A stretch of DNA of 64,000 nucleotides, from assembly GCA_963514005.1 (NCBI GenBank), contig OY740795.1, forward strand, positions 58,404,001-58,468,000, given 5' to 3'. Under the pieces are notes generated by a model, which did not search any database, was not told the DNA's origin, and saw nothing but the letters and a program-made list of their open reading frames with translations. This DNA is from Raja brachyura (taxonomy: Eukaryota). The position numbers and the translations under genes are program-made. Numbering within the stretch: position 1 is the stretch's first letter; each line of letters opens with the position of its first letter. Shown here piece by piece: positions 24,101 to 52,438 of this stretch.

Positions 24101-27100
24101 GAAAAGTCTATGCTTGTATTCACTGGAGTTTAGAAGGATGAGGGGGAATCTTATAGAAACATTTAAAATTTTAAAAGGACTGGACAAGCTAGATGCAGGA
24201 AAAATGTTACCAATGTTGGGCAAGTCCAGAACCAGGGACCACAGTCTCAGAATAAAGGGGAGGCTATTTAAGACTGAGGTGAGAAAAAACTTTTTCACCC
24301 AGAGAGTTGTGAAATTCCCTGACACAGAGGGCAGTGGAGGCCAAATCACCGGATGGATTTAAGGGAGAGTTAGAGCTATAGGGGGTAGTGGAATCAAGGG
24401 ATATGGGGACAAGGCAGGCACGGGTTATTGATTGGGGACGATCAGATTACAATGAATGGCGGTGCTGGCTCGAAGGGCGGAATGGCCCCCTCCTGCACCT
24501 ATTTTTTCCAATGAGTAGTCAGGGAATCTCTGTGTCAGGGAATCGCTCTTAAACACCACAACACAAGATCAAGTCTTTCGACCTCTCTGATCTGTGTTAT
24601 ATCTGATGACCATGGTTGTCGCCTGCTCCTTTTGTCATTTATTGCTAACTGCAGTTCTACATTGGTTAATCTGTCTCATTCAATTCCCAAGAGCAACTGA
24701 ATGAAACTTTATCAAACCAACGTCAGAGTAGTCAGTGGATGCCAGCAGAGAATGTGCAGCATACAAAGTGGTGCCTTTAGAAGTGTATTTTCGAAAACGA
24801 TACCAATGATGGGATCCCAAACTGAATTCGGGGATCGCAGGAAAGAATCAGCACGTTAGACAGTGTGTGCGCAGGGACAGTATGAGATGCTTTTGTATGA
24901 CAAGTGGGAAAAAGGACTCATTCCTAAGTTAGAGATGATGTTGGAGGGACTTGAGAGGGGAAAGGGAATTTCGAAATGGGCATTTTGAGCTGGACAATAC
25001 AAGCAAAATGGAAAACAAAACACTCCTAAGCACTTTGTTTGTGGCCTTCCTCTGCGTTATACCTAATCCCTATGGCAAGCTTTCAGAATCGCATTCCTCC
25101 GACAGTCTGTGTAGATGTAAACCATTGGAGTCAATATTAATGATCTACATTAAGGTGACGTCTTTCCGAAATTCGGCATCTGGAGGTTATTTGTTTTTAA
25201 TTTCAAGTAAGTCGTTCCATGTGCCTATCCCAGAAACTGACATTTCTGCTGCAAGTGAGAGTATCTGCGATTTACTCCCACATGGTAAGTTTGTTAGGCA
25301 AACCCATATGCCTGCAGGTTACAACACCGTACGCTTAAAAAAAAACGCTGCAATGCTCTTAATACCCTCATTGTACCATAGACCAGAGACAACGTGTCCG
25401 CACGTTGACTCTCGCCACAAATTATCGATGTTTCCAGTAACCTGTCCGCACCTCATATTCATCGCCAACTCATCTCGTATTCTCTCTTTTCCAGCTCTGA
25501 CCAATGACTCAGTGAAGTCTTAGCACTATTTCATTTTACATAGATATTGCTTCGCCGACGGAGTGATCTCAATCGTTAATTTTAGCTTTATCTCAGAAGA
25601 AAAGTGCACCAGTCACCTCTGGCCCACAGAGCATCGCTGCAGCTACCCCGGCTCACCTTTCCTCCAGTTGATTCGTTCAGTTTTTGGAGTCGGCATATCA
25701 TCATGGCTCACCACGCATTCGAAATAATCCCCACTCAGCCAGTCATGAGTCGAAATGTTGACTTTGCTCTCTACGATATCCCCGTGTTCTGTGGACTGGA
25801 CCTCTGATGCCAAAGGCACCTTTACGCGGTTCCAGGATACTGTGATACTGTAAGGTGCATTGGATACCAGACAGGTTAACGTTACGGTCATCTCCATTAA
25901 CTCTTGTTCAACAGGCGGTGGAAGGATTGTAATCTTTGTATCGTCGCAGGAACTATCATCTGTGGTACAATAATTAATGTGAACATAAGCATTTCCAGGA
26001 GTAACTGGGATCGAAGGTTTACACCAATCATCTGCCCCCAGAACTTTAATGTGTACATGATCGCTTCCGAGTTGTGATTCTAGGAACTGTGGTCCTAAAT
26101 CGTCTTGAACTGACTTTTGACTCAGTGCAGAGAACTACACAATGAATTAAATGAGAGATTGCACCATGGGCTATACCACGATAGACACGTAATGCTGGAG
26201 TACAGTAACTCAGCGGGTCAGGCACCACCTCTGCAGAAAATTAATACGAGACGTTTCGGGTCGAGGCCGCCCTTTAGATTGAGAGTCGGGGGGGGGGGGG
26301 GGGGGGGGGTAGGGGTATTAATAGGTACAAATAAAAAAAACAAGGATATTCGCCTCCTTGCCAGTGATGACCCACTTATACCGTCTGCACTGGCTTCCTC
26401 CTCTTGGACTTCAGCAGATGACCTTCTACCCTCCTGGACATTTCTATTCCTAAATGTTAGCGTGGCATCGGCAGTTGTAACCGTTCCAGTCCCCTTACCC
26501 ACACTGCAGCACTCTGACATTAGCATCAAACCCGCCGACAAGGGAGGTGCCTTGATCGTCTGGCGTGCTGCTCTCTACCGGCTCAGCCCAGATCCCAAAA
26601 CTTGGACACCTCCTACTTAACCCTGGACCATGGCTCCACAGACCAGGCCATTATCTCACAGACCATCATTAATGTTATCACTTCCGGCTGTCTGCCCTCC
26701 AAAGCAACTGTACCTTAACGTTCCTCGGCCGCATGTTCTCCAAAATCCATTAATTATTTTTGCCAGCTCGTGTCCCCCTGAAATCATTTCCATGCACCGC
26801 GGCTCCATCCTACCTCCTCTGATCCAACCCCTCCCGACCTATAACCATATAACAATTACAGCACAGAAACAGGCCATCTCGGCCCTTCCAGTCCGTGCCG
26901 AACAACTTTTTTCCCTTAGTCCCACCTGCCTGCACTCATACCATAACCCTCCATACCCTTCTCATCCATATGCCTATCCAATTTATTTTTAAATGATACC
27001 AACGAACCTGCCGCCACCACTTCCACTGGAAGCTCATTCCACACAGCTACCACTCTCTGAGTAAAGAAGTTCCCCCTCATGTTACCCCTAAATCTCTGTC

Positions 27101-30100
27101 CCTTAATTCTAAAGTCATGTCCTCGTGTTTGAATCTTCCCTATTCTCATAGGGAAAAGCTTGTCCACATCAACTCTGTCTATCCCTCTCATCATTTTAAA
27201 GACCTCTATCAAGTCCCCCCTTAATCTTCTGCGCTCCAGAGAATAAAGACCTAACTTATTCAACCTATCTCTGTAACTTAGCTGTTGAAACCCAGGCAAC
27301 ATTCTAGTAAATCTCCTCTGTACCCTCTCTATTTTGTTGACATCCTTCCTATAATTTGGCGACCAAAATTGTACACCATACTCCAGATTTGGTCTCACCA
27401 ATGCCTTGTACAATTTTAACATTACATCCCAGCTTCTATACTCAATGCTCTGATTTATAAAGGCTAGCATACCAAAAGCTTTCTTTACCTCCCTATCTAT
27501 ATGAGATTCCACCTTCAAGGAACTATGCACAGAGATCCCTCTGTTCAACTGTATTCAGCAAGACACGTCACACTTCCTTCGTTTCTTCAATTACTTCCAT
27601 TCTCCAGCCGCCAGTGCCCTCAACTTTACTATGGGGGTTCAGTCACTCTGCACCTCCAACCCCCATCAGGGAGGGCTTAATGCCCTACGTTTCTTCAAGG
27701 ACCGCTGAACCAAACAATTTCCCCCTCTAACCCGTTTAAAGGAACTGCTCCTCACTCTCATCAATGTCTCGTTAGAATCCTCCCAATTCCTCCAAAGCAG
27801 AGGTGTAGCATGGGCCCATGGGCTCGTATTGGCCCCAGCTACGGCTGCCTCTTTCTCCGCTACATTGACGACTCCAAATAGGCTACTTCCTGCATCCATG
27901 CAGAACTCACGGACATCATTGTCATCATTTCCAATTCCCACCCTGCACTCATGTTCACTTGGTCAATCTCTGACCTCCCTCCACTTTCTTGATCTCACCG
28001 TCTCCATCACAGGAGAAAGCTATCGTCAAACGTATATTACAAACCAACGGACAACCACAGCTTGCTGGGCGACACTTCTCATCCTGCCCCCTGCAAAGAC
28101 TCTAACCCTTGGTCACTTATCCTCTCTCTCCATCGTATCTGTGGTACTGCACCTAAGATGAGCTGTTCCATCCCAGGCCATCCGGGATGTCTTCATTCCT
28201 TAGGGAATGGGGGTTCCCCTCTACTATCATAGATGATGCCCTCACCCACGTCTCCTCAATATCCCACAGCTCCGCTCTTTCTCCCCCCCCCCCCCCCCGT
28301 GTTAACAGGGACGGAGTCCCCATAGTCCTCACCTTTCACCCTATCAACCTTCGCATACTGCACTTAATCCTCCGGTGTTTTCGCCTCCTCCAATGGGATT
28401 CCACCATCGGTCACATCTTTCCATCTCCACCACCTTTCCACCTTTCTCAGAGAACATTTCCTCGGCAAATCCCTGTTTAATTCATCCCTTCCTACAGCAG
28501 CCATCCCATCCGTTGCAACTGCAGGAGACGCAACAATTACCCAGATACCTCCTCACTCGACTTCATCCAGGGACCCCAACAGTCCTTTCAGATGAGGCAG
28601 AGGTTCACTTGCACCTCCATCAACCACTGTATCCGATGTGGGTTCCTGTACATCGGTGAACCAATGCCCAGACTGTCGCTGTCGTTTCACTGAACACCTT
28701 TGCTCTGTCCGCCTTGTCCTAGGCGATCACCAGCTTCCCAAACACATTAAAACCCCATCCAATTCCCACACTGTCCGTTCTGTCCTGGGTTTCCTCCACT
28801 GTCAGAGTGAAGCTAAACACAAATAGGAGGAACAACACCTCAAATTTCGCTTTGGGAACCTAAAACTCAGCGGTATGAATACTGACTTCTCTAATTTCAA
28901 GTAACCCTTACATTCCATCTCTCTTGGTCAACCTCCCACCCTAATCAACCTACTAGTTTCTCTGCGGTCCTGTTTCGTTTCACTCTTTGTATCTACTCGT
29001 TATCGCCATTTCCACAGCAACAATGGACCAATGTGGCCGCGACCTTTCCTTGTTCATTGTTGCTGCCTTTGATTTGTTCTTTTCATACCTTTCATTAATT
29101 TGCTTTTTTGTACATTCTCAGACCTTTAGTTTCCCTCTCCACTGATCCTACCCGGAAGAAGAGTCTCGACCTGAATCGTCACCTGTTCCCTTTCTCCAGA
29201 GATGCTGTTACTCCGGCATTTTGTGTCTACTTTCGGTGTAAACCAGCATCAGCACTTCCTTCCTACACATGGACTTTCACAATGTTAGCGAAGTTCTACC
29301 ACCGTGAGCGCTAATGTTCACACTAATACCCGAGACACACCACGGATGCATTTCTTACCTGGCAACCTACTGATATTTTGGCTTTTTATATCTTTTTCAT
29401 GGTTGACTTGGCAGGTATAGACGGAACCTCCGATCCACTCTCCAGCTGGGAATGTCAACTGGCTGGTCGCCGAGAAGTTACCATTCACCTGGAAGGCGGG
29501 AGAGGTGACGATGCCAGAATCCAATCGCTTGCCATTTTTCAGCCAGTTCACAGTAAATCTCGCTGGGGTGAAATCGTTGACCAAACACACGGCGATCACT
29601 TTTTTGCTGCGCCTCATTTCATCAAGGGCAGTTATGGTAATGGTGATGGATGGATGATATACCACCCGATCTGAAAGAAAATAAACGTCATTGGATTTGC
29701 TCTTAAACAATCGTCGATTAATATTGACACACATTATTTTGACAAAATTAAAATCACTTTCTCCGATTAAACGTAGCAACCTGGACTTGCAGAGATGTTG
29801 CTATATTCGTTGTTTATCATGGTACATCGCGTGCTCGTAAATGGGGAACTTATAGCTCGGTAAGTACTTGTCACAGGGATGGAATGGGCCGACTGTTCTG
29901 CTTTTGTCCTCTATGACAGTGGCTGTGTTTTAATACTCTAGATAATGTTCTCAACATGATGCACTCAGCCGCTTCCATTGTTCGCGAGTTAAAATGTAAC
30001 TCATCTACGGATAGATCAGTTCCTCGCGAATTATATGAATGTGCTAGTGATGATGATAAATGTATGTGCACTCTTTTCAAGCTCTCTTCCAAGTCAAATT

Positions 30101-30977: not shown

Positions 30978-33900
30978 GTGAATATGTGTGTACATACACA
31001 CACACTGAACTTGTTTTCTCACTCTCGTTTACCATATTATTTATTATGATTACATATTATGTTGTGCTGCAGCAAGCAATAATTTAATTGTTCTATCTGG
31101 GACACTCTGGACTCTCAACTCCACCCTCGGCCTCGTGGTGCACCCCAACACGAACCTGGTACTTTCACTTTATACTCTTTTTGGTGGTGTTGAACCAGGC
31201 AGAAGATGTCGCCTCCCCCTGCCTCTGCCTCCGCCTTGGCGATGGTTAACTCGCTGCTCCGGGTGTAAGTTCCCATCTTATTGAACACTGCCGGGTAGGT
31301 CTTCACTCCGGTGATCAGGTCCGTCTCATCTTTCTTCCAAGAAACACTGGCGCCCGCAGGGGAAAAGCCCAACGCCAAACAACCGTAGGTGAACGAACCA
31401 CTGGAGCCGTGATCCTCGCAGGTGAAGAGGATGAAGGGGCTGGGGGCGGAATTAGCCGCTGCAAGTCAAAGGTCACATGAATGTTAAACTCTCTTTCTTG
31501 CTCGTTTTGCAAAATATTCAGTGCAACGAATCATTATACAGCAATTTGTTACGCAATATTCTATGTCATGAAACTTCACCCGAGTGTCATAAACTATTTG
31601 TTCAACTTCCCGCCTTGATCCCACCTTGGCTGAAAACTTCTTGTGGTGCCAATAACTGGCAGTTACTGGCAAATATATGCACAATCTCGAGTTAACCATA
31701 TAACCATGTAACAATTACAGCACGGAAACAGGCCTTCTCGGCCCTTCCAGTCCGTGCCGACCATTTATTTTCCCCTAGTCCCATCTACCTGCATTAGTGG
31801 GCGGGCGGGCGGGCGTGACTCACATTGCAGCGGTCTATACAGCCTGTCTGTCTTTTCTTTTGTCTAGTTAAAAGTAGTTGTTCGTGTTTTTTGTGTGTAT
31901 TGTCTCTAATTGTGTATATGTGGGGGGGGGTGGGGGACTTTTAAATCTCTTCCCTGCACGGGAGACCCGACTTTTTCCCTGTCGGGTCTCCGTTGTCGTT
32001 GGGGCCCAGCACCGAGGAGCGGCCTCCGACCGGGACGACCTGGGGGCTCCAGTCGCTGAACCTGCGGAGCTGCGGGGCTCACCGTCGTGGGGCAGGCCGG
32101 CCTCGGAGCGTGGGGAGCGGTGGGGCTCGCTCCAGCTCCAGCTCCAGACCGGTGGACTTATTCCTTATTCTTAAACTGTGGCCCCTGGTTCTGGACTCCC
32201 CCAAAATCGGGAACATGTTTCCTGCCTCTAGCGTGTCCAAGCCCTTAACAATCTTATACGTTCAATGAGATCCCCTCTCATCCTACTAAACTTCAGAGTG
32301 TACAAGCCCAGATGCTCCATTCTCTCACCATATGACAGTCCCGCCATCCCGGGAATTAACCATGTAAACCTGAGCTGCACTCCCTCAATAGCAAGAATGT
32401 CCTTCCTCAAATTAGGGGACCAAAACTGCACACAATGCTCCAAAAGGGGTCTCACAAGGGTTCTGTACAACTGCAGAAGGACCTCTTTGCTCCCATGTAT
32501 GATTCCTCTTGTTATAAAGGCCAACATGCCATTCGCTTTAGTCACTGCCTGCTGTAGCTGCATGCTTACGTCCATAGACTGACGTACAAGGGCCCCCAGA
32601 TTCCATTGCACTTCCCCTTTTCCCAACGTGATGCCATTCAAATAGTAATCTGCCTTCCTGTCTTTGCTACCAAAGTGGATAACCTAACATTTTTTACGCA
32701 TTAAACTTCATCTGCCCACTCCCCCAACCTGTCCAAGTCACCCTGCATTCTCATAGCATCCTCCTCACAGTTCACACTGCCACCCAGCTTTGTGTCATCT
32801 GCAAATTTGCTAATGTTACTTTGAACCCCTTCATCCAAATCATTCATGTATATTGTAAATAGCTGTGGTCCCAGGACAGAGCCTTGCGGTACCCCACTAG
32901 AATGGCGGTCCTGGCTCGAAGGGCCGAACGGCCTCCTCCTGCACCTATTTACTATGTTTCTATGTTAAATGGGCTCTCCTTATTCTTAAACTGTGGCCCC
33001 TGGTTCTGGACTCCCCCAACATCGGGAACATGTTTCCTGCATCGACCGTGTCCAATCCCTTAATAATTTTATATGGGTTTTTTTGAGATTCCCTCTCATC
33101 CTTCTAAATTCCAGTGAATACAAGCTGAGGCGCTCCATTCTTTCTCCATGTCAGTCCCGCCATCCCGGTATTAACCTGGTGAACCTTTGCTACACTCCCT
33201 CAATAGCAAGAATGTCCTGCCTCAAATTAGGAGAGCAACACTGCACACATTACTCCAGCTGTGGTCTCACCAGGGGCTTATACAACTACAGAAGGACCAC
33301 TTTGCTCCAAAACTCAATGCCTCTCTTTATGAAGGCCAAAATGCCATTAGGTTTCTTCACTGCCTGTTGTACCTGTATGCTTCATTTCAGTGACTGATGT
33401 ACTAGGATACCCAGGTCTTGTTGTACTTCCCCTTTTCCTAACCTGACACAATTCAGATAATAATCTGCCTTTCCGTTCTTGCCTCCAAAGTGGATAACCT
33501 CACATTTATCCACATTATACTGCATCTTCCATGCATCTGCCCACTCACCCAACCTGTCCAAGTCACCCTGAATTCTCATAGCATTTTCTTCACAGTTCGC
33601 ACTGCCACCCAGCTTTGTGTCATCTGCAAATGTGCGCATGTTACTTTTAATTCCTTCATCTAAATCAGGAATATATATTGTAAATTGCTGCGGTCCCAGC
33701 AACGAGCCTTGCGGCACCCTGTTTTGAAAAGGCCCCGTTAATTCCTACCCTTTGTTTCCTGTCTGTCAACCAATTTTCTATTCATGTCAATACCGACCCT
33801 CAATACCATGTGCTCTAATTTTGCTCACTAATCCCGTGTGGGACCTTGTCAAAGGCTTTCTGAAAGTTCTGGTACACTACATCCACTGGCTCTCCCTTGT

Positions 33901-36900
33901 CCATTTTACTTGTTACATTCTCAAAAACCTCCAAAAGATTTGTTATGCATGATTTCCCCTTCGTAAATCCATGCTGACTTGGACCGACTCTGTTACTGCT
34001 AACCAAATGCGCCACTGTTACATATTTGATAATCGACTCCAGCATCTTCCCCAATACGGATATCAGGCCAACTGGTCTATCATTCCCTGCATTCTCTCTC
34101 CCTCCTTTCTTGAAAAGTGTTATAACATTATCTACCCTCCAATCCACAGGAACTGATCCAGAATCTAAAGGGCATTCGAAAGTGATTACCAATGCTTCCA
34201 CGATTTGGAGAGGCACCGCCTTGAGTACTCTGAAAGAACTTTGCACTTCTGTGTTTTGCTGCAAGAAAATGTTACTTCCTCAATCCAAGATTTGTTAGCA
34301 ATTGGATTAAAGGTGGCAATGCGATTCCACCAATTAATACATACACTTCTTAAATACAAAGCGTGAACATTTTACACCCAGGATTTATCCCTTTCTATCG
34401 TTTGTTTCATATGCGCCGAGGATAAACAAACTGAGACAAAGTACCTGCTGTCGATCAGAAAACACAGTTAGATGCACCGCTGATCTAGGACCACAAAAAT
34501 CTCAAACAATTTGAAAGCATAGTAAAGGCATATTTTTTCGAATAAGGAACTAAATCACATCCGTTGCACCGTCAAAGGGTCGAAAGTCATAGCACATAAG
34601 GCAAGTTTAATTCGGGAATCTCACTGCAGCGACATCACATAACATTCTAAAGCAACATCAATCCAACATTGCAATGAATGGGTAATTAATCCAGAACAAC
34701 TATTTAATACAATTATTGGAAATATGATTTCTAATCCATTCAGCCAGCGGTTCTATCATAAGCGCAAATAGCAATGGTAATAAGGCACAACCCTGCCTAT
34801 TACCCCTTGATAAATAAAATTTTGGAGATAACATATTATTAGTTAATATTCTTGCCATAGGTTTATCATAAAGTAGTTTAACCCATCTAATAAAATTCTC
34901 TCCCGTTATAAATTTTTGGAGTACCTTATATAAATACTGCCATTCTACCTGATCAAATGCCTTCACTGCATCCAACGTAACGACTGCAATATCTTCAATG
35001 TCCTCTTTGTGAGAGTACATTATATTGAAAATCCTTCTCAAGTTATTAAATGATTGTCTTTTGGGTATAAATCCCGTTTGATCCGGGTTTACCAACTTGT
35101 TAGTATAATTATTCAGTCTTCTTGCTAGAATCCTTGCTAAGATTTTCTGATCCGTATTTAGAAGTGATACAGCTCTGTAAGAACCCGGTTCCTCTAAGTC
35201 TTTATCTTTTTTTGGTATAAGCATTATTGTTGATTCTGCCAAAGTTTCTGGTAGTTTATTTTCAGTATAAGCCTGTGTGTATAAGTTGAGGAATCTTGGT
35301 ACAATTGACTCCTGAAATTGTTTATAAAATTCATTGCTAAAACTATCTGGTCCTGGGGTCTTCCCATTTTTCAATTAGTTTATTGTTTGTTTTATTTCTT
35401 CACTAGTAATCCGTGCTCCTAATTCCTCTTGTTCTAAACTATCCAATTTAGGGAGATTGCAATTATCTTTAAAAAATGTAATTTTACTATCATCTGTATT
35501 TATTTTAGTTGTTTATAAATTATGATAAAATTGGGCAAACCTTTTATTAATGTCCTTCGGTAGTGTTAGAAGCTCACCCTTATCAGATTTAATTTTAGTG
35601 ATAGTATTTTCCTTTTCTTGTTGCTTCAGTTGCCTCGCTAATAATTTATGTTGCTTATCCCCAAATTCTGAGTGTGCCTGTTTTGTAATTTGGAATAGTC
35701 TTATTACTCTTGACAATAATATTCTATTAAGTTTGTATTTCAATAAGGTTATCTTATTATGTCTATCTATGGTTGGGTCACTTGCATTGTCCAATTCTAG
35801 TAATTTTATTTCCTTTTCAATCCTCTGAAGTTCTCTTTTATTTTCTTTATTTTGAAAACTTTGATAAGAGATTATAGCACCACGAATGTATGCCTTAAAG
35901 GTTTCCCATAATAGCGATACAGAAATATCATGCGGGTTATTTAATATTTGTGTGTTGAATCTCCAAAAAGGTTTTATACCCTGCATTCCCTCGATGTTAA
36001 GTATAAATGTCAGAGGTGAATGATCATAAATAATACTATTATGGTATGATGGTTTAGTCGTATACGGGATTAATTGTATCCAATAAGAAATAGTCAATTC
36101 ATTAATAAGTTTTATGAACCGATGAGTAAAACAAACATTCCCTTACAATTGGGTTTGCTATTCTACAAACATCAGTTATGTTATTATTTTTTGTATAAGT
36201 ATTTAAAAATTCCCAGGTCTTCGTTTTAACAAGATGCTTCTCTACCTTTATTTATTTATCTAAATATGGGCCTATAACACAATTAAAATCTCCCCCCATT
36301 ATTATATTTTGATAATTATGCTCATCCGAATATTCACAGATATAATACTAAGGATTCAAAGAATAAAACTTAATTATATGCTGATGGTATTCTTTTATAT
36401 ATTACTAATACACAAACGAGTATCCCCACCTCATTAACACTAATCGAGGAATTTGGTTCTTTTTCAGGATACGGAATAAATTGGAATAAAACCAAAATTA
36501 TGTCTTTGAAACCACAGGATGCGAGACACTTATTGAAATTCCCTTTCAAAATTACAACAGAAAAATTCAAGTATTTGGGTATTCAAATTACGAGAAGACA
36601 CAAATCATTATTTAGTGCCAATTTTATGCCACTATTAAATAAACTGAATGTTATGATCAAATTTTGGAAAACGCTACCGCTTATTGATAGGTAGAATTAA
36701 CGCTATAAAAAAGACTTTACCACAATTGATATATTTGTTTCATACGATCGCAATATATATTCCAAAATATTCTAGATTCTAATGTCAATAATTTTATATG
36801 GGATTATAGAGCACACATAATTCAACAATAGCATCTGTGTAAACCTAAAGAAGTTGGGGGTTTATCATTACCTAACTTTACGTATTACTACTGGGCAGTC

Positions 36901-39900
36901 AGTGCATATTAAGAACATAATGTATGGTTGGATAGTCCCACTCACCAGTCGGAGTGGATAAGGATGGAGAAAGAGGAGTCTTTCCCGTACGATATAGGAA
37001 CGATCTTGTTCTCACCGATATAATTGAATAGTATAATATAAGAAGAACCCAATTATTCACAATACGAGTTTGGAAACAAATAAAATTATCCTTGAAATTA
37101 AATAATCTATCAGTACTAACCCCAATATTGAATAATCCTGCATTCAAACCATCTCTTATCGACAAAACATATAAACAATGGGATAGACTGGGAATTAGGA
37201 AAGTAGGAGATATGTATGAATTGGGCAAATTGTTATCATTTCAACAATTAAAATCAAAATTTAAACTGAATGATAATCAATATTTTAAATGTATACAAAT
37301 ATGTGAATTTATGAAGAAATATATACATAGATTTCAAACTATATTTTAGACCCTTTAGAAGCAATGAATATTAAGGCTCATTTACAAAAAATTACATCAT
37401 ATTTTTATAATAGTATGTTAAATAGAGAATTACCCTCAACAGAGGCACTAAGAGAAGATTGGGAACATGAACTAATGATAAAGATTCCGAAAGATAAATG
37501 GGAAAAGTATCTGATGAACACACATAATTGTTACATTAATGCAAGACGTAATCTAATTCAATTTAAATTATTACCTTTATCTTTAATAAAAAAATATTAT
37601 CTTTAATAAAAAAATATTACAAAAAAAAAAAAAAAAAATTATTACAGCGACTATATTATTGAAAAACGAGGTTGAATAACTTCTACCCAAACGTCTCTCC
37701 TAGATGCGATAAATGTTTGTTTCAAAATGCCAATATAACACATTCATTTGTAGGATGTATAAAGTAGAATACATTTTGGACCAATATATTTGATATATTT
37801 ACAAAGCTCTTCAAGTCAAGAATAGAACCTAATACAGAATGAATTATATTTGGAATAATAGCAGACAATATCAATTTAAACAAAGACCAAAAAGTATTCT
37901 TTAATTATGGGTTAATAATTGGAAAGAAATTGATACTTACATTTTGAAAAAATACAGTTATACCAATTATTAAAATGTGGATTAGTAATATGATGGACAT
38001 AGCTCACCTTGAAGAAATGAGACTCCGCCTAATAGATAAATATGACCAATTCTTAAGGAGTTGGTCCCCTTTCATTGACTTTTTGGAATCATGTGATGCA
38101 GCAGTGCCGTAAAGATTTCTGATTTCAGGTCAGGTCGTGGATAGATTTACATCTCCAAACAAAGATTTGAAATTTTCCTTTTTAAGGGTCTTTTTCTCCT
38201 ATTTCTACTTTTTCTTTTCTTATATACACACCTCGCGTTTTTCTATTTTCTACTATCTATTTATCTTCTTTTTCTTCTCTCTATTTGTTGTCTTTTTTTT
38301 TACTTCCTTTTCAAAAACATAAAACTAGAGGTTGTACATAGAATGTATTACGTTATGAGATAGTTGGCACCTAAAATTAGGTGCCACTGTATTGTTTTGT
38401 ACTGTATTAGCTTCTAATAAAATAAACAAAAGTTAAAAAAAATTTTTTTTGGAAATATAGAATAAAATTACAACTGGATACATCTAGAGACTGGATAGCA
38501 TTAAGTTTCTTACCGTTGGTTACCATTAACATGGTGCCTCCTCCCCAGTAGTCAAGTCCAGTGTACACAGTGAAACGCATCATGTCAAATACTTTGCTCT
38601 CCAAAAACTAATGCATGCACTGCTCACAGTGGATATGTCCCGGGCTACTCTCCGCTGTTATTTTTAAAGCTGAACAGTGTTCTTCCAAATCTCATGTAAA
38701 ATAACGTTAATTGGCCAGAATGGACATTTACATAGAAAATAGTTGCAGGAGGAGGCCATTTGGCCCTTCGAGCCAGCACGCCATTCATTGAGATCATGGC
38801 TGATCGTCCCCTGTCAATAACCCATGCCTGCCACAAATTAGGAGACCAAAACTGTACACAATACTCCAGATGTGGCCTAACCAGAGCCCTATACAACTGC
38901 AGAAGAACCTCTTTACTCCTATACTGAAATGCTCTTGTTATGAAGGCCAACATTCCATTAGCTTTCTTCACTGACTGCTGTACCTGCACGCCACCTTTCA
39001 GTGACCGGTGTACAAGGATGCCCAGGTCTCGCTGCACCTCCCCCTTACCTAACCTAACCCCTTTGAGATAATAACCTGCCCCCTTGTTTTTGCCACCAAA
39101 GTGGGTAACCTCACATTTATCTATATTATACTGCATCTGCCATGCGGCATTCCACTCGCCACTGCCTGCCATTCTGAAAAGGACCCGTTCATTCCTACTC
39201 TTTGCTTTCGGTCTGCCAGCCAATTTTCTATCCATGTCAACACCCTACCCCCAATACCATGCGGTCTAATTTTAGTCACCAGTCTCCCATGTGGGACCTT
39301 ATCAAAGGCAATTTTTTCAAAACAATCCATGTAACTTTAAGCAGTGAACTTTCATTTGAATTTGCTTCATTCAGCTCTCCTGCTGTGCTTGTAGGTTCAA
39401 ACTGGAGAAAACTAGGTGTGCGCGTTTTTGTACGGGGGAGTCGCTGTTTGCAGCACGGTGACCCCCTGTAGTATCTGTCGCACAGTAATAGACAGCGGTG
39501 TCTTCGATCCTCAGGTTCCTGGCGGTCACAGTGAACATATTATTTGAATTGTCTTTGGACGGAGTAAATCGTCTCTCTATCCCCGGAGCGAAGTACTTGT
39601 TAGAAGAATCGTAGCAGCTAAGCAGCCACTCCAGCCCCTGCCCGGGGACTTGACGGACCAAATACATATAGCGGCTGCTAAAATCGAACCCGCTGGTTTT
39701 GCAGGTCAGTGTGATGGAGCCTCCATGAATGGCGGTCTCTGTCTTGGGCTGTGTTAGAACGACATCGGAATGGACACCTGCAAGTTAAAAAAAGGCATGA
39801 ATGGTGAGGACAAATTATTGACAATTGATCGCCGACTTTAATTATCAAGAGGGAATAAATTGGGAGCCTGCAAGAGTGGGTAGAACGGGAATGGCGTAGT

Positions 39901-39991
39901 GGATATACCACTGAGAAACTTGCGTGAGGAATCTGTCCAACTCACGGACTATTAACGCCAGGAACAGACTCAGTGAAACTGCCGACCTCAT
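18757..39991 (-). CDS. IGHM: Immunoglobulin mu heavy-chain gene cluster (L-VD...DJ-CH1-CH2-CH3-CH4/sec-TM1-TM2), cartilaginous-fish type
   Basis: Nine coding segments, all stop-free, with GT-AG boundaries in compatible phases and Ig-domain Cys/Trp motifs; see the individual exons. Confidence 0.95.
18887..19014 (-). CDS. IGHM: IgM TM1 exon
   Basis: ctttctgtag|(D)[42 protein letters not shown]|gtgagt; acidic spacer plus antigen-receptor TM motif; too short for the ORF track. Confidence 0.93.
19777..20360. other. Assembly gap (584 N), flanked by a (GT/GC)n repeat, in the CH4-TM1 intron
   Basis: Run of N. Confidence 0.99.
21685..21700 (-). terminator. Tandem AATAAA polyadenylation signals of the secretory mu transcript
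   Basis: TTTATT on + at 21685-21690 and 21695-21700, ~30-40 bp after the tailpiece stop. Confidence 0.8.
21728..22119 (-). CDS. IGHM: IgM CH4 exon with secretory tailpiece; internal donor for the membrane form at 21790/21789
   Basis: ccgtag|(G)[56 protein letters not shown]|[19 protein letters not shown]; NVS sequon and penultimate Cys; G|GTAAA internal donor. Confidence 0.96.
22300..24510 (+). mobile_element. Degenerate CR1 LINE in the CH3-CH4 intron
   Basis: [13 protein letters not shown] and VPQGSVLGP motifs; CR1 3' UTR. Confidence 0.9.
25657..25959 (-). CDS. IGHM: IgM CH3 exon
   Basis: ccacag|(D)[76 protein letters not shown]|gtgagc; 303 nt. Confidence 0.95.
26200..29270 (+). mobile_element. 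Degenerate Penelope-like (RT plus GIY-YIG) element in the CH2-CH3 intron, split by a CR1
   Basis: [17 protein letters not shown] (ctccgctacattgacgac ~27855), [14 protein letters not shown] and RFTEHL remnants. Confidence 0.75.
26840..27550 (-). mobile_element. Young 5'-truncated CR1 LINE
   Basis: Open frame 26916..27548; C-terminal 128 aa identical to ORF 58127..58513. Confidence 0.92.
29359..29670 (-). CDS. IGHM: IgM CH2 exon
   Basis: ctttcag|(D)[58 protein letters not shown]|gtaag; 312 nt. Confidence 0.95.
30575..31100 (+). mobile_element. Rex1/Babar-like LINE 3' fragment with (TG)n/(TA)n microsatellites
   Basis: [34 protein letters not shown], similar to the ORF at 55404. Confidence 0.7.
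31156..31458 (-). CDS. IGHM: IgM CH1 exon
   Basis: cttgcag|(A)[84 protein letters not shown]|gttcgt; 303 nt; light-chain-linking Cys retained. Confidence 0.93.
31694..34230 (-). mobile_element. Cluster of CR1 fragments (31694-31790, 32160-32900, 32965-34230) plus a GC-rich repeat (~31800-32160)
   Basis: Minus-strand CR1 RT ORFs 32228..32641, 33382..33717 and 33815..34264. Confidence 0.85.
34726..38448 (+). mobile_element. L1 LINE with 5' inversion (inverted part ~34726-36320 on -, direct part ~36321-38448 on +)
   Basis: The minus part encodes [35 protein letters not shown]. The plus part resumes [20 protein letters not shown] and ends in AATAAA plus an A-rich tail. Flanking repeat TTGGAAATAT at 34716-34725 and 38449-38458. 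Confidence 0.88.
38514..38565 (-). CDS. IGHJ: Germline-joined D2-JH segment
   Basis: TACACTGGA CTTGACTACTGGGGAGGAGGCACCATGTTAATGGTAACCAACG|gtaag = [17 protein letters not shown]; WGxG motif; preceded by a 12-spacer RSS. Confidence 0.9.
38566..38593 (+). promoter_or_regulatory. Recombination signal sequence, 12-bp spacer (5' of D2)
   Basis: CACAGTG (38566-38572), 12 bp, TCAAATACT (38585-38593; 6/9 match to ACAAAAACC). Confidence 0.8.
38730..39310 (-). mobile_element. Internally deleted CR1 fragment between the two RSS
   Basis: ORFs 38645..39235 and 39121..39330 are discontinuous CR1 RT pieces, with a 3' tail. Confidence 0.88.
39423..39460 (-). promoter_or_regulatory. Recombination signal sequence, 22-bp spacer (3' of D1)
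   Basis: CACCGTG (39460-39454), 22 bp, ACAAAAACG (39431-39423). Confidence 0.9.
39461..39777 (-). CDS. IGHV: VH exon germline-joined to D1
   Basis: cttgcag|(R)[100 protein letters not shown] followed by the D-like ATACTACAGGGGGT (39474-39461); open frame. Confidence 0.95.
39946..39991 (-). CDS. IGHV: VH leader (signal peptide) exon
   Basis: [19 protein letters not shown]|gtgagt; 46 nt, phase 1, with a 168-bp intron to the V exon. Confidence 0.93.
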
Positions 39992-40049
39992 CCCGCTGGG
40001 AAGTGTGACCCGGTTTGTTTCTGTACAGAACCTTGCAACAAACCAACTG

Positions 40050-51589: not shown

Positions 51590-52120
51590 ATTGACAATAG
51601 ACAATAGACAATAGTTGCAGGAACAGGCCATTCGGCCCTTTGAGCCAGCACAGCCATTCACTGTGATCATGGCTTATCATCCACAATCAGTACCCCGTTC
51701 CTGCCTTCTCCCCATATCCCTTGTCTCCGCTATCTTTAAGAGCTATCTAATCTCTCTTGAAAGCATCTGGATAATTGGCCTCCACTGCCTTTTGAGGCAG
51801 AGAATTCCACAGATTCACAACTCTCTGGGTGAAATTTTTTTTCCTCATCTCCACTCTAAATGGCCTACACCTTATTCTTAATCCATGGCCCCTGGTTCTA
51901 GACTCCCCAAACATCGGGAACATGTTTCCTGCCTCAAGTGTATCCAATCCCTTAATAATCTTAAATATTTAAATAAGATCCTCTCTCATCATTCTAAATT
52001 CCAGTGTATACAAGCCCAGTCACTCCATTCTTTCAACATCGGACAGTCCCGCCATCCCGAGAATGGCGATCCCGATAACCTCGTGAACCTCCGCCGCACT
52101 CCCTCAATAGCAAGAATCTA
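51590..52120 (-). mobile_element. 5'-truncated CR1 LINE
   Basis: ORF 51747..51947; (CTATTGT)n tail. Confidence 0.88.
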
Positions 52121-52438
52121 CACTGCACTCCCTCAATAGCAAGAATCTATGCTGCACTCCCTCAATCGCAAGAATCTACACTGCACTCCCTCAATAGCAA
52201 GAATCTATGCTGCACTCCCTCAATAGCAAGAATCTATGCTGCACTCCCTCAATAGCAAGAATCTACACTGCACTCCCTCAATAGCAAGAATCTATGCTGC
52301 ACTCCCTCAATAGCAAGAATCTACACTGCACTCCCTCAATAGCAAGAATCTACACTGCACTCCCTCAATAGCAAGAATCTACACTGCACTCCCTCAATAG
52401 CAAGAATCTATGCTGCACTCCCTCAATAGCAAGAATCT
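52096..52438. repeat. 29-bp minisatellite, ~12 copies, derived from CR1 sequence
   Basis: Unit GCACTCCCTCAATAGCAAGAATCTA(CA/TG)CT. Confidence 0.95.

What the first reader, a model, noticed from the sequence alone, without database searches (positions are those of the whole stretch)
38514..39777. IgM variable region half pre-assembled in the germline (VD1 - D2J), leaving a single RAG joint
Seen: VH runs past YYCAT directly into ATACTACAGGGGGT and then a 22-spacer RSS. JH is preceded by TACACTGGA and a 12-spacer RSS. No free D segments lie between them. Established: unrearranged elasmobranch IgM clusters are V(23)-(12)D1(22/23)-(12)D2(12)-(23)J, with D1 resembling TACTACAGTGGGT and D2 resembling TATACTGGA, and germline-joined clusters occur in sharks and skates. 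Inference: two of the three joints were made in germ cells and fixed, so B cells make only the D1-D2 joint, giving a semi-hardwired, low-diversity antibody on an otherwise complete gene. The VD-DJ class is known in general; whether this locus has been described cannot be judged here.
Basis: partly seen in the sequence, partly recalled or inferred. Interest (0 to 1): 0.85.

Follow-up and report, generated by a model that had tools for sequence, protein, structure and literature searches.

The report
Half pre-joined skate IgM gene
This intact IgM antibody gene, likely from a skate, already carries its V-to-D1 and D2-to-J joints in genomic DNA, and matching joints occur in other organisms' sequencing runs, so B cells would likely need just one RAG join to finish it; half-joined genes of this type are already known in sharks and skates.

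Summary
On the minus strand the V exon runs into D1 and a 22-spacer RSS, and a 12-spacer RSS leads into D2 fused to J. The DNA between the signals is the D1-D2 spacer of unjoined paralogues plus a 580-bp LINE-like insert. None of 15 unjoined V ends or 15 J starts carries these bases. Contigs from runs of other organisms bridge the joints: both in organism A, D2-J in B, a same-length V-D1 joint in C. So it is inherited, not a somatic product. Leader, Cmu1-4, secretory tail and TM exons are open. Whether B cells complete and express it is unshown. The Cmu constraint signal (pN/pS 0.24-0.29) also appears in two out-of-frame clusters, so it does not prove present function. 'Low diversity' is relative: one trimmed, N-filled joint still allows many CDR3s. 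VD-DJ germline clusters are a named class (PMC5192425). It is 1 of 27 such VH here, in a genome holding four joined states. New member of a known kind, useful as a barcoded test locus.

The parts
39946..39991 (-). Leader exon ([15 protein letters not shown]); the 90 bp upstream match paralogue promoters
   Evidence: 86 of 90 upstream bases identical to L005 and to L018
39474..39777 (-). VH exon up to the untrimmed V end (GCGACAGA, the same end as unjoined L006); has an extra Cys at the start of CDR2
39461..39473 (-). D1 fused to V; 0-1 non-templated bases by comparison with paralogue D1 alleles
39423..39460 (-). D1 3' RSS, 22-nt spacer; heptamer CACCGTG and nonamer ACAAAAACG each differ by one base from the paralogues
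38733..39312 (-). 580-bp internally deleted LINE-like insert in the D1-D2 spacer; best other copies 95-96% identical over 319 bp. The label CR1-type LINE is recalled
38566..38593 (+). D2 5' RSS, 12-nt spacer; heptamer and nonamer identical to the commonest paralogue form
38514..38565 (-). D2 (TACACTGGA) fused to JH ([14 protein letters not shown]), no N bases, GT donor
31156..31458 (-). Cmu1 exon, open
29359..29670 (-). Cmu2 exon, open
25657..25959 (-). Cmu3 exon, open
21728..22119 (-). Cmu4 exon with secretory tail ending in Cys-Gln-stop
18887..19014 (-). Transmembrane exon 1
18757..18765 (-). Transmembrane exon 2 (VK stop)

Best explanation
This is an intact IgM heavy-chain cluster whose V-D1 and D2-J joints are present in genomic DNA of several organisms, likely made by RAG in germ cells of an ancestral skate, and B cells would likely finish it with one D1-D2 join across the remaining 22/12 signal pair. 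That join would delete the 895-bp spacer with its LINE insert. The V-side frame (ATDTTGG) and J-side frame (YTGLDY) are fixed, so about a third of joins would be in frame and only the centre of CDR3 would vary; a flush join gives a 13-residue loop. Shown: anatomy, derivation from an ordinary cluster, presence in other organisms' runs, open exons. Inferred: RAG in germ cells as the cause, somatic completion, expression. It is most likely a still-competent but minor contributor, one step of a one-way process that has also left VD-D-J, V-DDJ and VDDJ clusters in this genome.
For: Anatomy and homology to the D1-D2 spacer. None of 15 unjoined V ends and 15 J starts carries the fused bases. laid 4 of 21 listed runs. 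Organism A: a contig at 38458-38757 (1 difference) bridges D2-J and one at 39332-39505 (3 differences) bridges V-D1, at depth 10.2 and 9.9 against 215 for the collapsed J contig. Organism B: 38464-38757 (1 difference, depth 6.6) bridges D2-J. Organism C: 39313-39507 (13 differences, its one gap outside the joint) bridges V-D1. All ten coding pieces are open with GT-AG borders. The joints show trimming or microhomology and 0-1 added bases, as reported for shark germline joints (PMC2193156, passages). Nurse shark segments join in no fixed order and VD-DJ is a somatic intermediate there (PMC2435157). Opossum VH3.1, a germline VD, is completed and transcribed but rarely used (PMC3454362, passage).
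Against: No transcript or somatic D1-D2 joint was seen. The D1 heptamer change is private, and signal bases are not clearly better kept than the spacer (2 of 32 against 26 of 242 private letters; no test run, too few sites). The Cmu constraint signal does not separate this gene from two out-of-frame clusters (0.29 against 0.40 and 0.28). Expression of germline-joined H chains was not detected in horn shark (PMC2193156, passage). Of the 4 other partly joined clusters here, 3 are visibly damaged. In one search the listed pieces showed no V-D1 bridge for B, no D2-J bridge for C and neither for D; those tables are cut.
Confidence: 0.55

Rival explanations
1. Inherited but effectively silent relic: the joints are germline accidents, and the solitary cluster is rarely or never completed or expressed although its exons are still open.
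For: Private heptamer change, LINE insert and no clear conservation of the signals. All 10 solitary clusters are joined and 6 of them are out of frame or broken. Out-of-frame clusters show a similar low pN/pS. Extra CDR2 cysteine. Horn shark joined H genes were not found expressed (PMC2193156).
Against: No stop, frameshift or splice defect in leader to TM2 although the gene is 87-93% identical to its paralogues over promoter, V and J. Private Cmu changes are 6 of 147 synonymous against 5 of 516 nonsynonymous sites, p=0.018, while two broken-V clusters give 1.95 and 2.68. The promoter is kept.
Confidence: 0.27
2. A selected semi-invariant antibody: the single-joint design is kept because it gives a fast, restricted early-life IgM with fixed CDR3 flanks.
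For: The V-D1 joint seems shared with organism C at about 93% identity, so it is old. Other solitary clusters with similarly long branches are fully joined, while this one keeps a matched RSS pair. Germline-joined genes are reported to be favoured early in development (PMC4279169, passage).
Against: No expression data. The V shows no constraint signal (pairwise dN/dS 0.68-1.92). The in-frame register of the two halves has a 1 in 3 chance. One gene among 27.
Confidence: 0.15
3. A somatic lymphocyte rearrangement or an assembly artefact captured in the assembly.
For: VD-DJ intermediates occur in nurse shark thymocytes (PMC2435157). The best-matching run could be the window's own sample.
Against: Matching joints in runs of three different organism labels and studies, in A and B at about a twentieth of the collapsed-J depth. 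Somatic joints are each unique, with trimming and N/P addition (PMC2435157). No unjoined twin exists: the closest paralogue is 92.5% identical.
Confidence: 0.02

Closest known systems
Partly germline-joined elasmobranch IgM clusters (VD-J, VD-DJ)
   Same: Same configuration. PMC5192425 (passage) lists VD-J and VD-DJ as germline forms. I recall that Harding, Cohen and Litman 1990 reported VD-DJ in non-lymphoid DNA of the little skate; I saw only its title in a reference list.
   Different: Here the whole gene to TM2, the paralogue set and cross-organism sharing are resolved. Whether this is the orthologue of the 1990 clone is unknown.
Nurse shark IgM1gj
   Same: Germline-joined IgM heavy chain (PMC4279169, passage).
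   Different: IgM1gj is fully joined, needs no RAG and lacks Cmu2; this gene keeps one joint open and has four Cmu exons.
Opossum VH3.1 (germline VD)
   Same: A partly joined heavy-chain gene completed by one somatic join, transcribed but rarely used (PMC3454362, passage).
   Different: Mammalian translocon with a choice of J; here one fixed D2-J partner inside one cluster.
Somatic VD-DJ intermediates of nurse shark thymocytes
   Same: Same two joints made, same signal pair left (PMC2435157).
   Different: Those are cell-specific and N-diversified; this one recurs across organisms.

Membership tests
Elasmobranch IgM heavy-chain cluster | Split leader, one VH, two D, one JH in one cluster | tested here: met
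   both D are present in fused form
Elasmobranch IgM heavy-chain cluster | Four Cmu exons, secretory tail with penultimate Cys, TM1 and TM2 | tested here: met
Elasmobranch IgM heavy-chain cluster | Constant region most like named IgM | tested here: met
   Cmu4: 91% to an Amblyraja radiata locus, 69-70% to named shark IgM
Partly germline-joined VD-DJ cluster | V-D1 and D2-J signals and spacers are gone, and unjoined segments do not natively carry the fused bases | tested here: met
   0 of 15 V ends and 0 of 15 J starts
Partly germline-joined VD-DJ cluster | Inherited: the same joints in other individuals or species | tested here: met
   V-D1 bridged in A and C, D2-J in A and B; tissue and library type not on record
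Partly germline-joined VD-DJ cluster | Remaining signals face each other and obey the 12/23 rule | tested here: met
   22- and 12-nt spacers as in 15 of 15 paralogues
Partly germline-joined VD-DJ cluster | Completed by RAG in B cells and expressed (function, not needed for the structural class) | not testable with these tools
   no repertoire data laid
IgM1gj | Fully joined VDJ | tested here: not met
   895-bp spacer with two RSS remains
IgM1gj | Lacks Cmu2 | tested here: not met
   open Cmu2 at 29670-29359

The most novel reading that the evidence does not exclude
A single-joint IgM kept by selection across several skate lineages: fixed CDR3 flanks, one variable centre and an extra CDR2 cysteine make a semi-invariant, quickly completed early-life antibody, a halfway state between IgM1gj and ordinary IgM.
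Probability: 0.15. Interest if true: 0.65.

Novelty: new member of a known kind. Interest (0 to 1): 0.35.

Why it matters
Whether partly joined elasmobranch heavy-chain genes are used or are dead ends has been doubted since joined horn shark genes were not found expressed (PMC2193156, passage). This gene is intact, 7% or more away from every paralogue and has fixed flanks on both sides of one joint, so any repertoire read from it is unmistakable. That makes the question directly testable, and isolates the trimming and N addition of one D-D join. The configuration itself would not surprise a specialist.

Tried and rejected
No RNA holder listed for 38450-40000; this says nothing on expression. 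Run X9 (organism D) showed no listed piece over either joint, and stretches without cover in the other runs are uninformative. The contigs of A and B reach only 25 letters into the LINE, under the 31 needed to count as a bridge, so sharing of the insert is only hinted. A protein search with V-D1 found no close record (26 hits, best 63% over most of the query), so no annotation of this locus was found. Conservation of the RSS as proof of function: inconclusive. Cmu pN/pS as proof of present function: rejected, since out-of-frame controls score alike; a branch-specific dN/dS remains open. 'N-less joints mark germline events': not general here, as L011, L023, L026 and L027 appear to carry added bases. 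Descent of the fully joined clusters from this gene: their joints differ and the trees give no supported sister pair. The Cmu match 0.6 Mb away is not a second copy: no V, J or Cmu1 in the 50 kb fetched. The toy junction simulation (33% in frame, 8,223 peptides in 200,000 draws) rests on my own trimming and N ranges and is illustrative only. Six paper searches found no description of this locus; the library lacks most subscription and old papers. Two look-ups in earlier scan findings returned nothing.

Full report
Observation. The gene lies on the minus strand. The V exon (from 39777) passes its Cys codon and continues for 21 nt into a 22-spacer RSS at 39460-39423. A 12-spacer RSS at 38593-38566 abuts TACACTGGA, which runs into a J ending at a GT donor at 38514. 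A looser scan found no other RSS between them. A strict scan of the whole window gave 3 hits, one of them this 22-spacer signal.

Comparison with paralogues. A search of the own genome with the V gave 107 matches (150 of 235 candidates scored); 27, including this gene, are 71% or more identical and form this VH family. Their states: 13 unjoined V(23)-(12)D1(22)-(12)D2(12)-(23)J; 2 VD-D-J (L002, L003); 2 V-DDJ (L011, L012); 9 fully fused, 3 of them in frame (L014, L023, L026); and this one VD-DJ. The V end equals that of L006. The next 13 nt match D1 alleles with 0-1 extra base. D2 equals the L005 allele less 3 nt and J lacks 5 nt with no added bases; with the J allele of L002 and L003 the join would use a 3-nt overlap. 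The interval between the signals is the D1-D2 spacer (148 and 167 bp flanks) with a 580-bp insert, 895 bp in all against 303-316 bp in 15 paralogues. The insert is three pieces of an abundant repeat whose best other copies are 95-96% identical; LINE is my label from its likeness to repeats in the window and from recall.

Is it inherited? Of 21 listed runs I laid 4, one each from organisms A, B, C and D. All are contigs with no library record; their repeat content points to genomic DNA. In A one contig covers 38458-38757 with 1 difference and bridges D2-J; another covers 39332-39505 with 3 differences and bridges V-D1, with 32 letters on the V side. Their depths are 10.2 and 9.9, against 215 for the collapsed J contig. 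A has the paralogue nonamer and shares the unusual heptamer. In B a contig at 38464-38757 (1 difference, depth 6.6) bridges D2-J. In C a contig at 39313-39507 (13 differences, one gap outside the joint, depth 117) bridges a V-D1 joint of the same length; its differences are not all listed, so identity of the event is likely, not proven. D showed no listed bridge. One run could be the window's own sample, but each joint is seen in two organism labels, so at least one holder of each is independent. A somatic product is therefore very unlikely.

Is the gene intact? Leader, V, J, Cmu1-4, secretory tail, TM1 and TM2 are open with GT-AG borders, and the splice contexts match paralogues. The 90 bp before the ATG match L005 and L018 at 86 positions; a third comparison, L016, gave 44 of 90 in an ungapped count, as expected from an upstream indel seen. 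Cmu4 is 91% identical to an Amblyraja radiata locus and 69-70% to named shark IgM, so the host is likely a skate. The V has one extra Cys at the start of CDR2.

Is it under selection? The evidence is weak. In a 20-cluster alignment (L002 dropped for a Cmu2 frameshift) pairwise Cmu dN/dS is 0.43-0.80, against 0.85 between the two unjoined arrays, and V gives 0.68-1.92. At otherwise invariant Cmu codons the gene has 6 synonymous changes at 147 sites and 5 nonsynonymous at 516, p=0.018; a second count gave 6 and 6, p=0.030. Two broken-V clusters give pN/pS 1.95 and 2.68, but two out-of-frame clusters give 0.40 and 0.28 and two orphan fragments 0.56 and 0.75. The test shows constraint over the lineage's history, not present use. 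Heptamers and nonamers carry 2 private letters in 32, the spacer 26 in 242: no clear signal. In the trees the gene is a long lone branch near the C3 array, and the VD joint of L002/L003 arose separately inside the C2 array (one search held 25 of 27 rows).

How it most likely works. RAG active in germ cells made two of three joints in an ordinary cluster (inferred; the model of PMC2193156, which also reports little TdT activity in such joints, passages). The remaining signals face each other and obey the 12/23 rule. That tolerance rests on the first three heptamer bases is recalled, not tested. Nurse shark segments join in no fixed order (PMC2435157, passages and section 8 part 1), so one join should be feasible. 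Both flanking frames are fixed, and a flush join gives a 13-residue loop. Diversity would fall from three variable joints to one, but trimming and N addition would still give many loops. I put completion and expression at about 0.55 as a minor contributor, 0.15 as a selected semi-invariant antibody, and 0.27 as a silent relic.

What is known. PMC5192425 (passages) names VD-J and VD-DJ as germline forms of elasmobranch IgM. PMC4279169 (passages) and PMC8355894 (passages) mention VD-J forms and early expression of joined genes. PMC3454362 (passages) describes the opossum germline VD that is completed but rarely used. I recall that the 1990 little skate paper by Harding, Cohen and Litman reported VD-DJ in non-lymphoid DNA; I saw only its title. 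PMC12227049 (passages), PMC2191167 (one reference hit) and PMC12269197 (one reference hit) added nothing. No supplements were read; those of PMC2435157 hold junction sequences that could refine the somatic comparison. Searches found no description of this locus, but the library lacks most older and subscription papers.

Verdict. A real, inherited, intact VD1-D2J IgM gene: a new member of a known kind. Its value is as a uniquely barcoded test of whether partly joined clusters are used. Interest 0.35.

Noticed in passing
G000, L001-L027: All 10 solitary clusters of this VH family are germline-joined, against 4 of 17 in the two tandem arrays (C2:150.3-151.1 Mb, C3:5.2-6.3 Mb). Fisher p=0.00015, but the copies are not independent. 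9 of the 10 lie within 2.7 Mb of a contig end. This suggests a one-way process in which old lone clusters get joined while arrays are renewed from unjoined copies.
   Followed up: partly
L011, L012 (C3:5653756, C3:6126788): V-DDJ clusters whose V signal spacer is shortened from 23 to 13 nt, so it faces a 12-spacer signal and likely cannot join.
   Followed up: partly
L002, L003 (C2:150811020, C2:150362949): VD-D-J pair with a short V-D1 joint; L002 has a Cmu2 frameshift, L003 is open in V and Cmu1-4.
   Followed up: partly
L014, L023, L026: Three fully joined, in-frame VDJ genes with open Cmu1-4, candidates for RAG-independent four-domain IgM.
   Followed up: partly
window 34463-34501 (+): A J-type 23-spacer RSS look-alike in the J-Cmu1 intron, in a stretch shared by 10 other IgM clusters held, with no J motif after it; possibly a vestige.
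   Followed up: partly
G000:C15:59036449-59044136: Orphan Cmu2(part)-Cmu3-Cmu4-TM fragment 0.6 Mb away in the opposite orientation; Cmu4 protein 99% identical while introns are 83-94%, hinting at gene conversion.
   Followed up: partly
G000:C35:31561352-31566669: A divergent Cmu1-4 set (55-83% identity) with no V of this family in the 10 kb upstream.
   Followed up: partly
L015, L021, L022, L025: A clade of fused pseudogenes that lost the second V cysteine, copied to four contig ends; L022 has a tandem expansion at the junction.
   Followed up: no
window 52096-52438: 29-bp tandem array, 11.8 copies, 94% matches.
   Followed up: no
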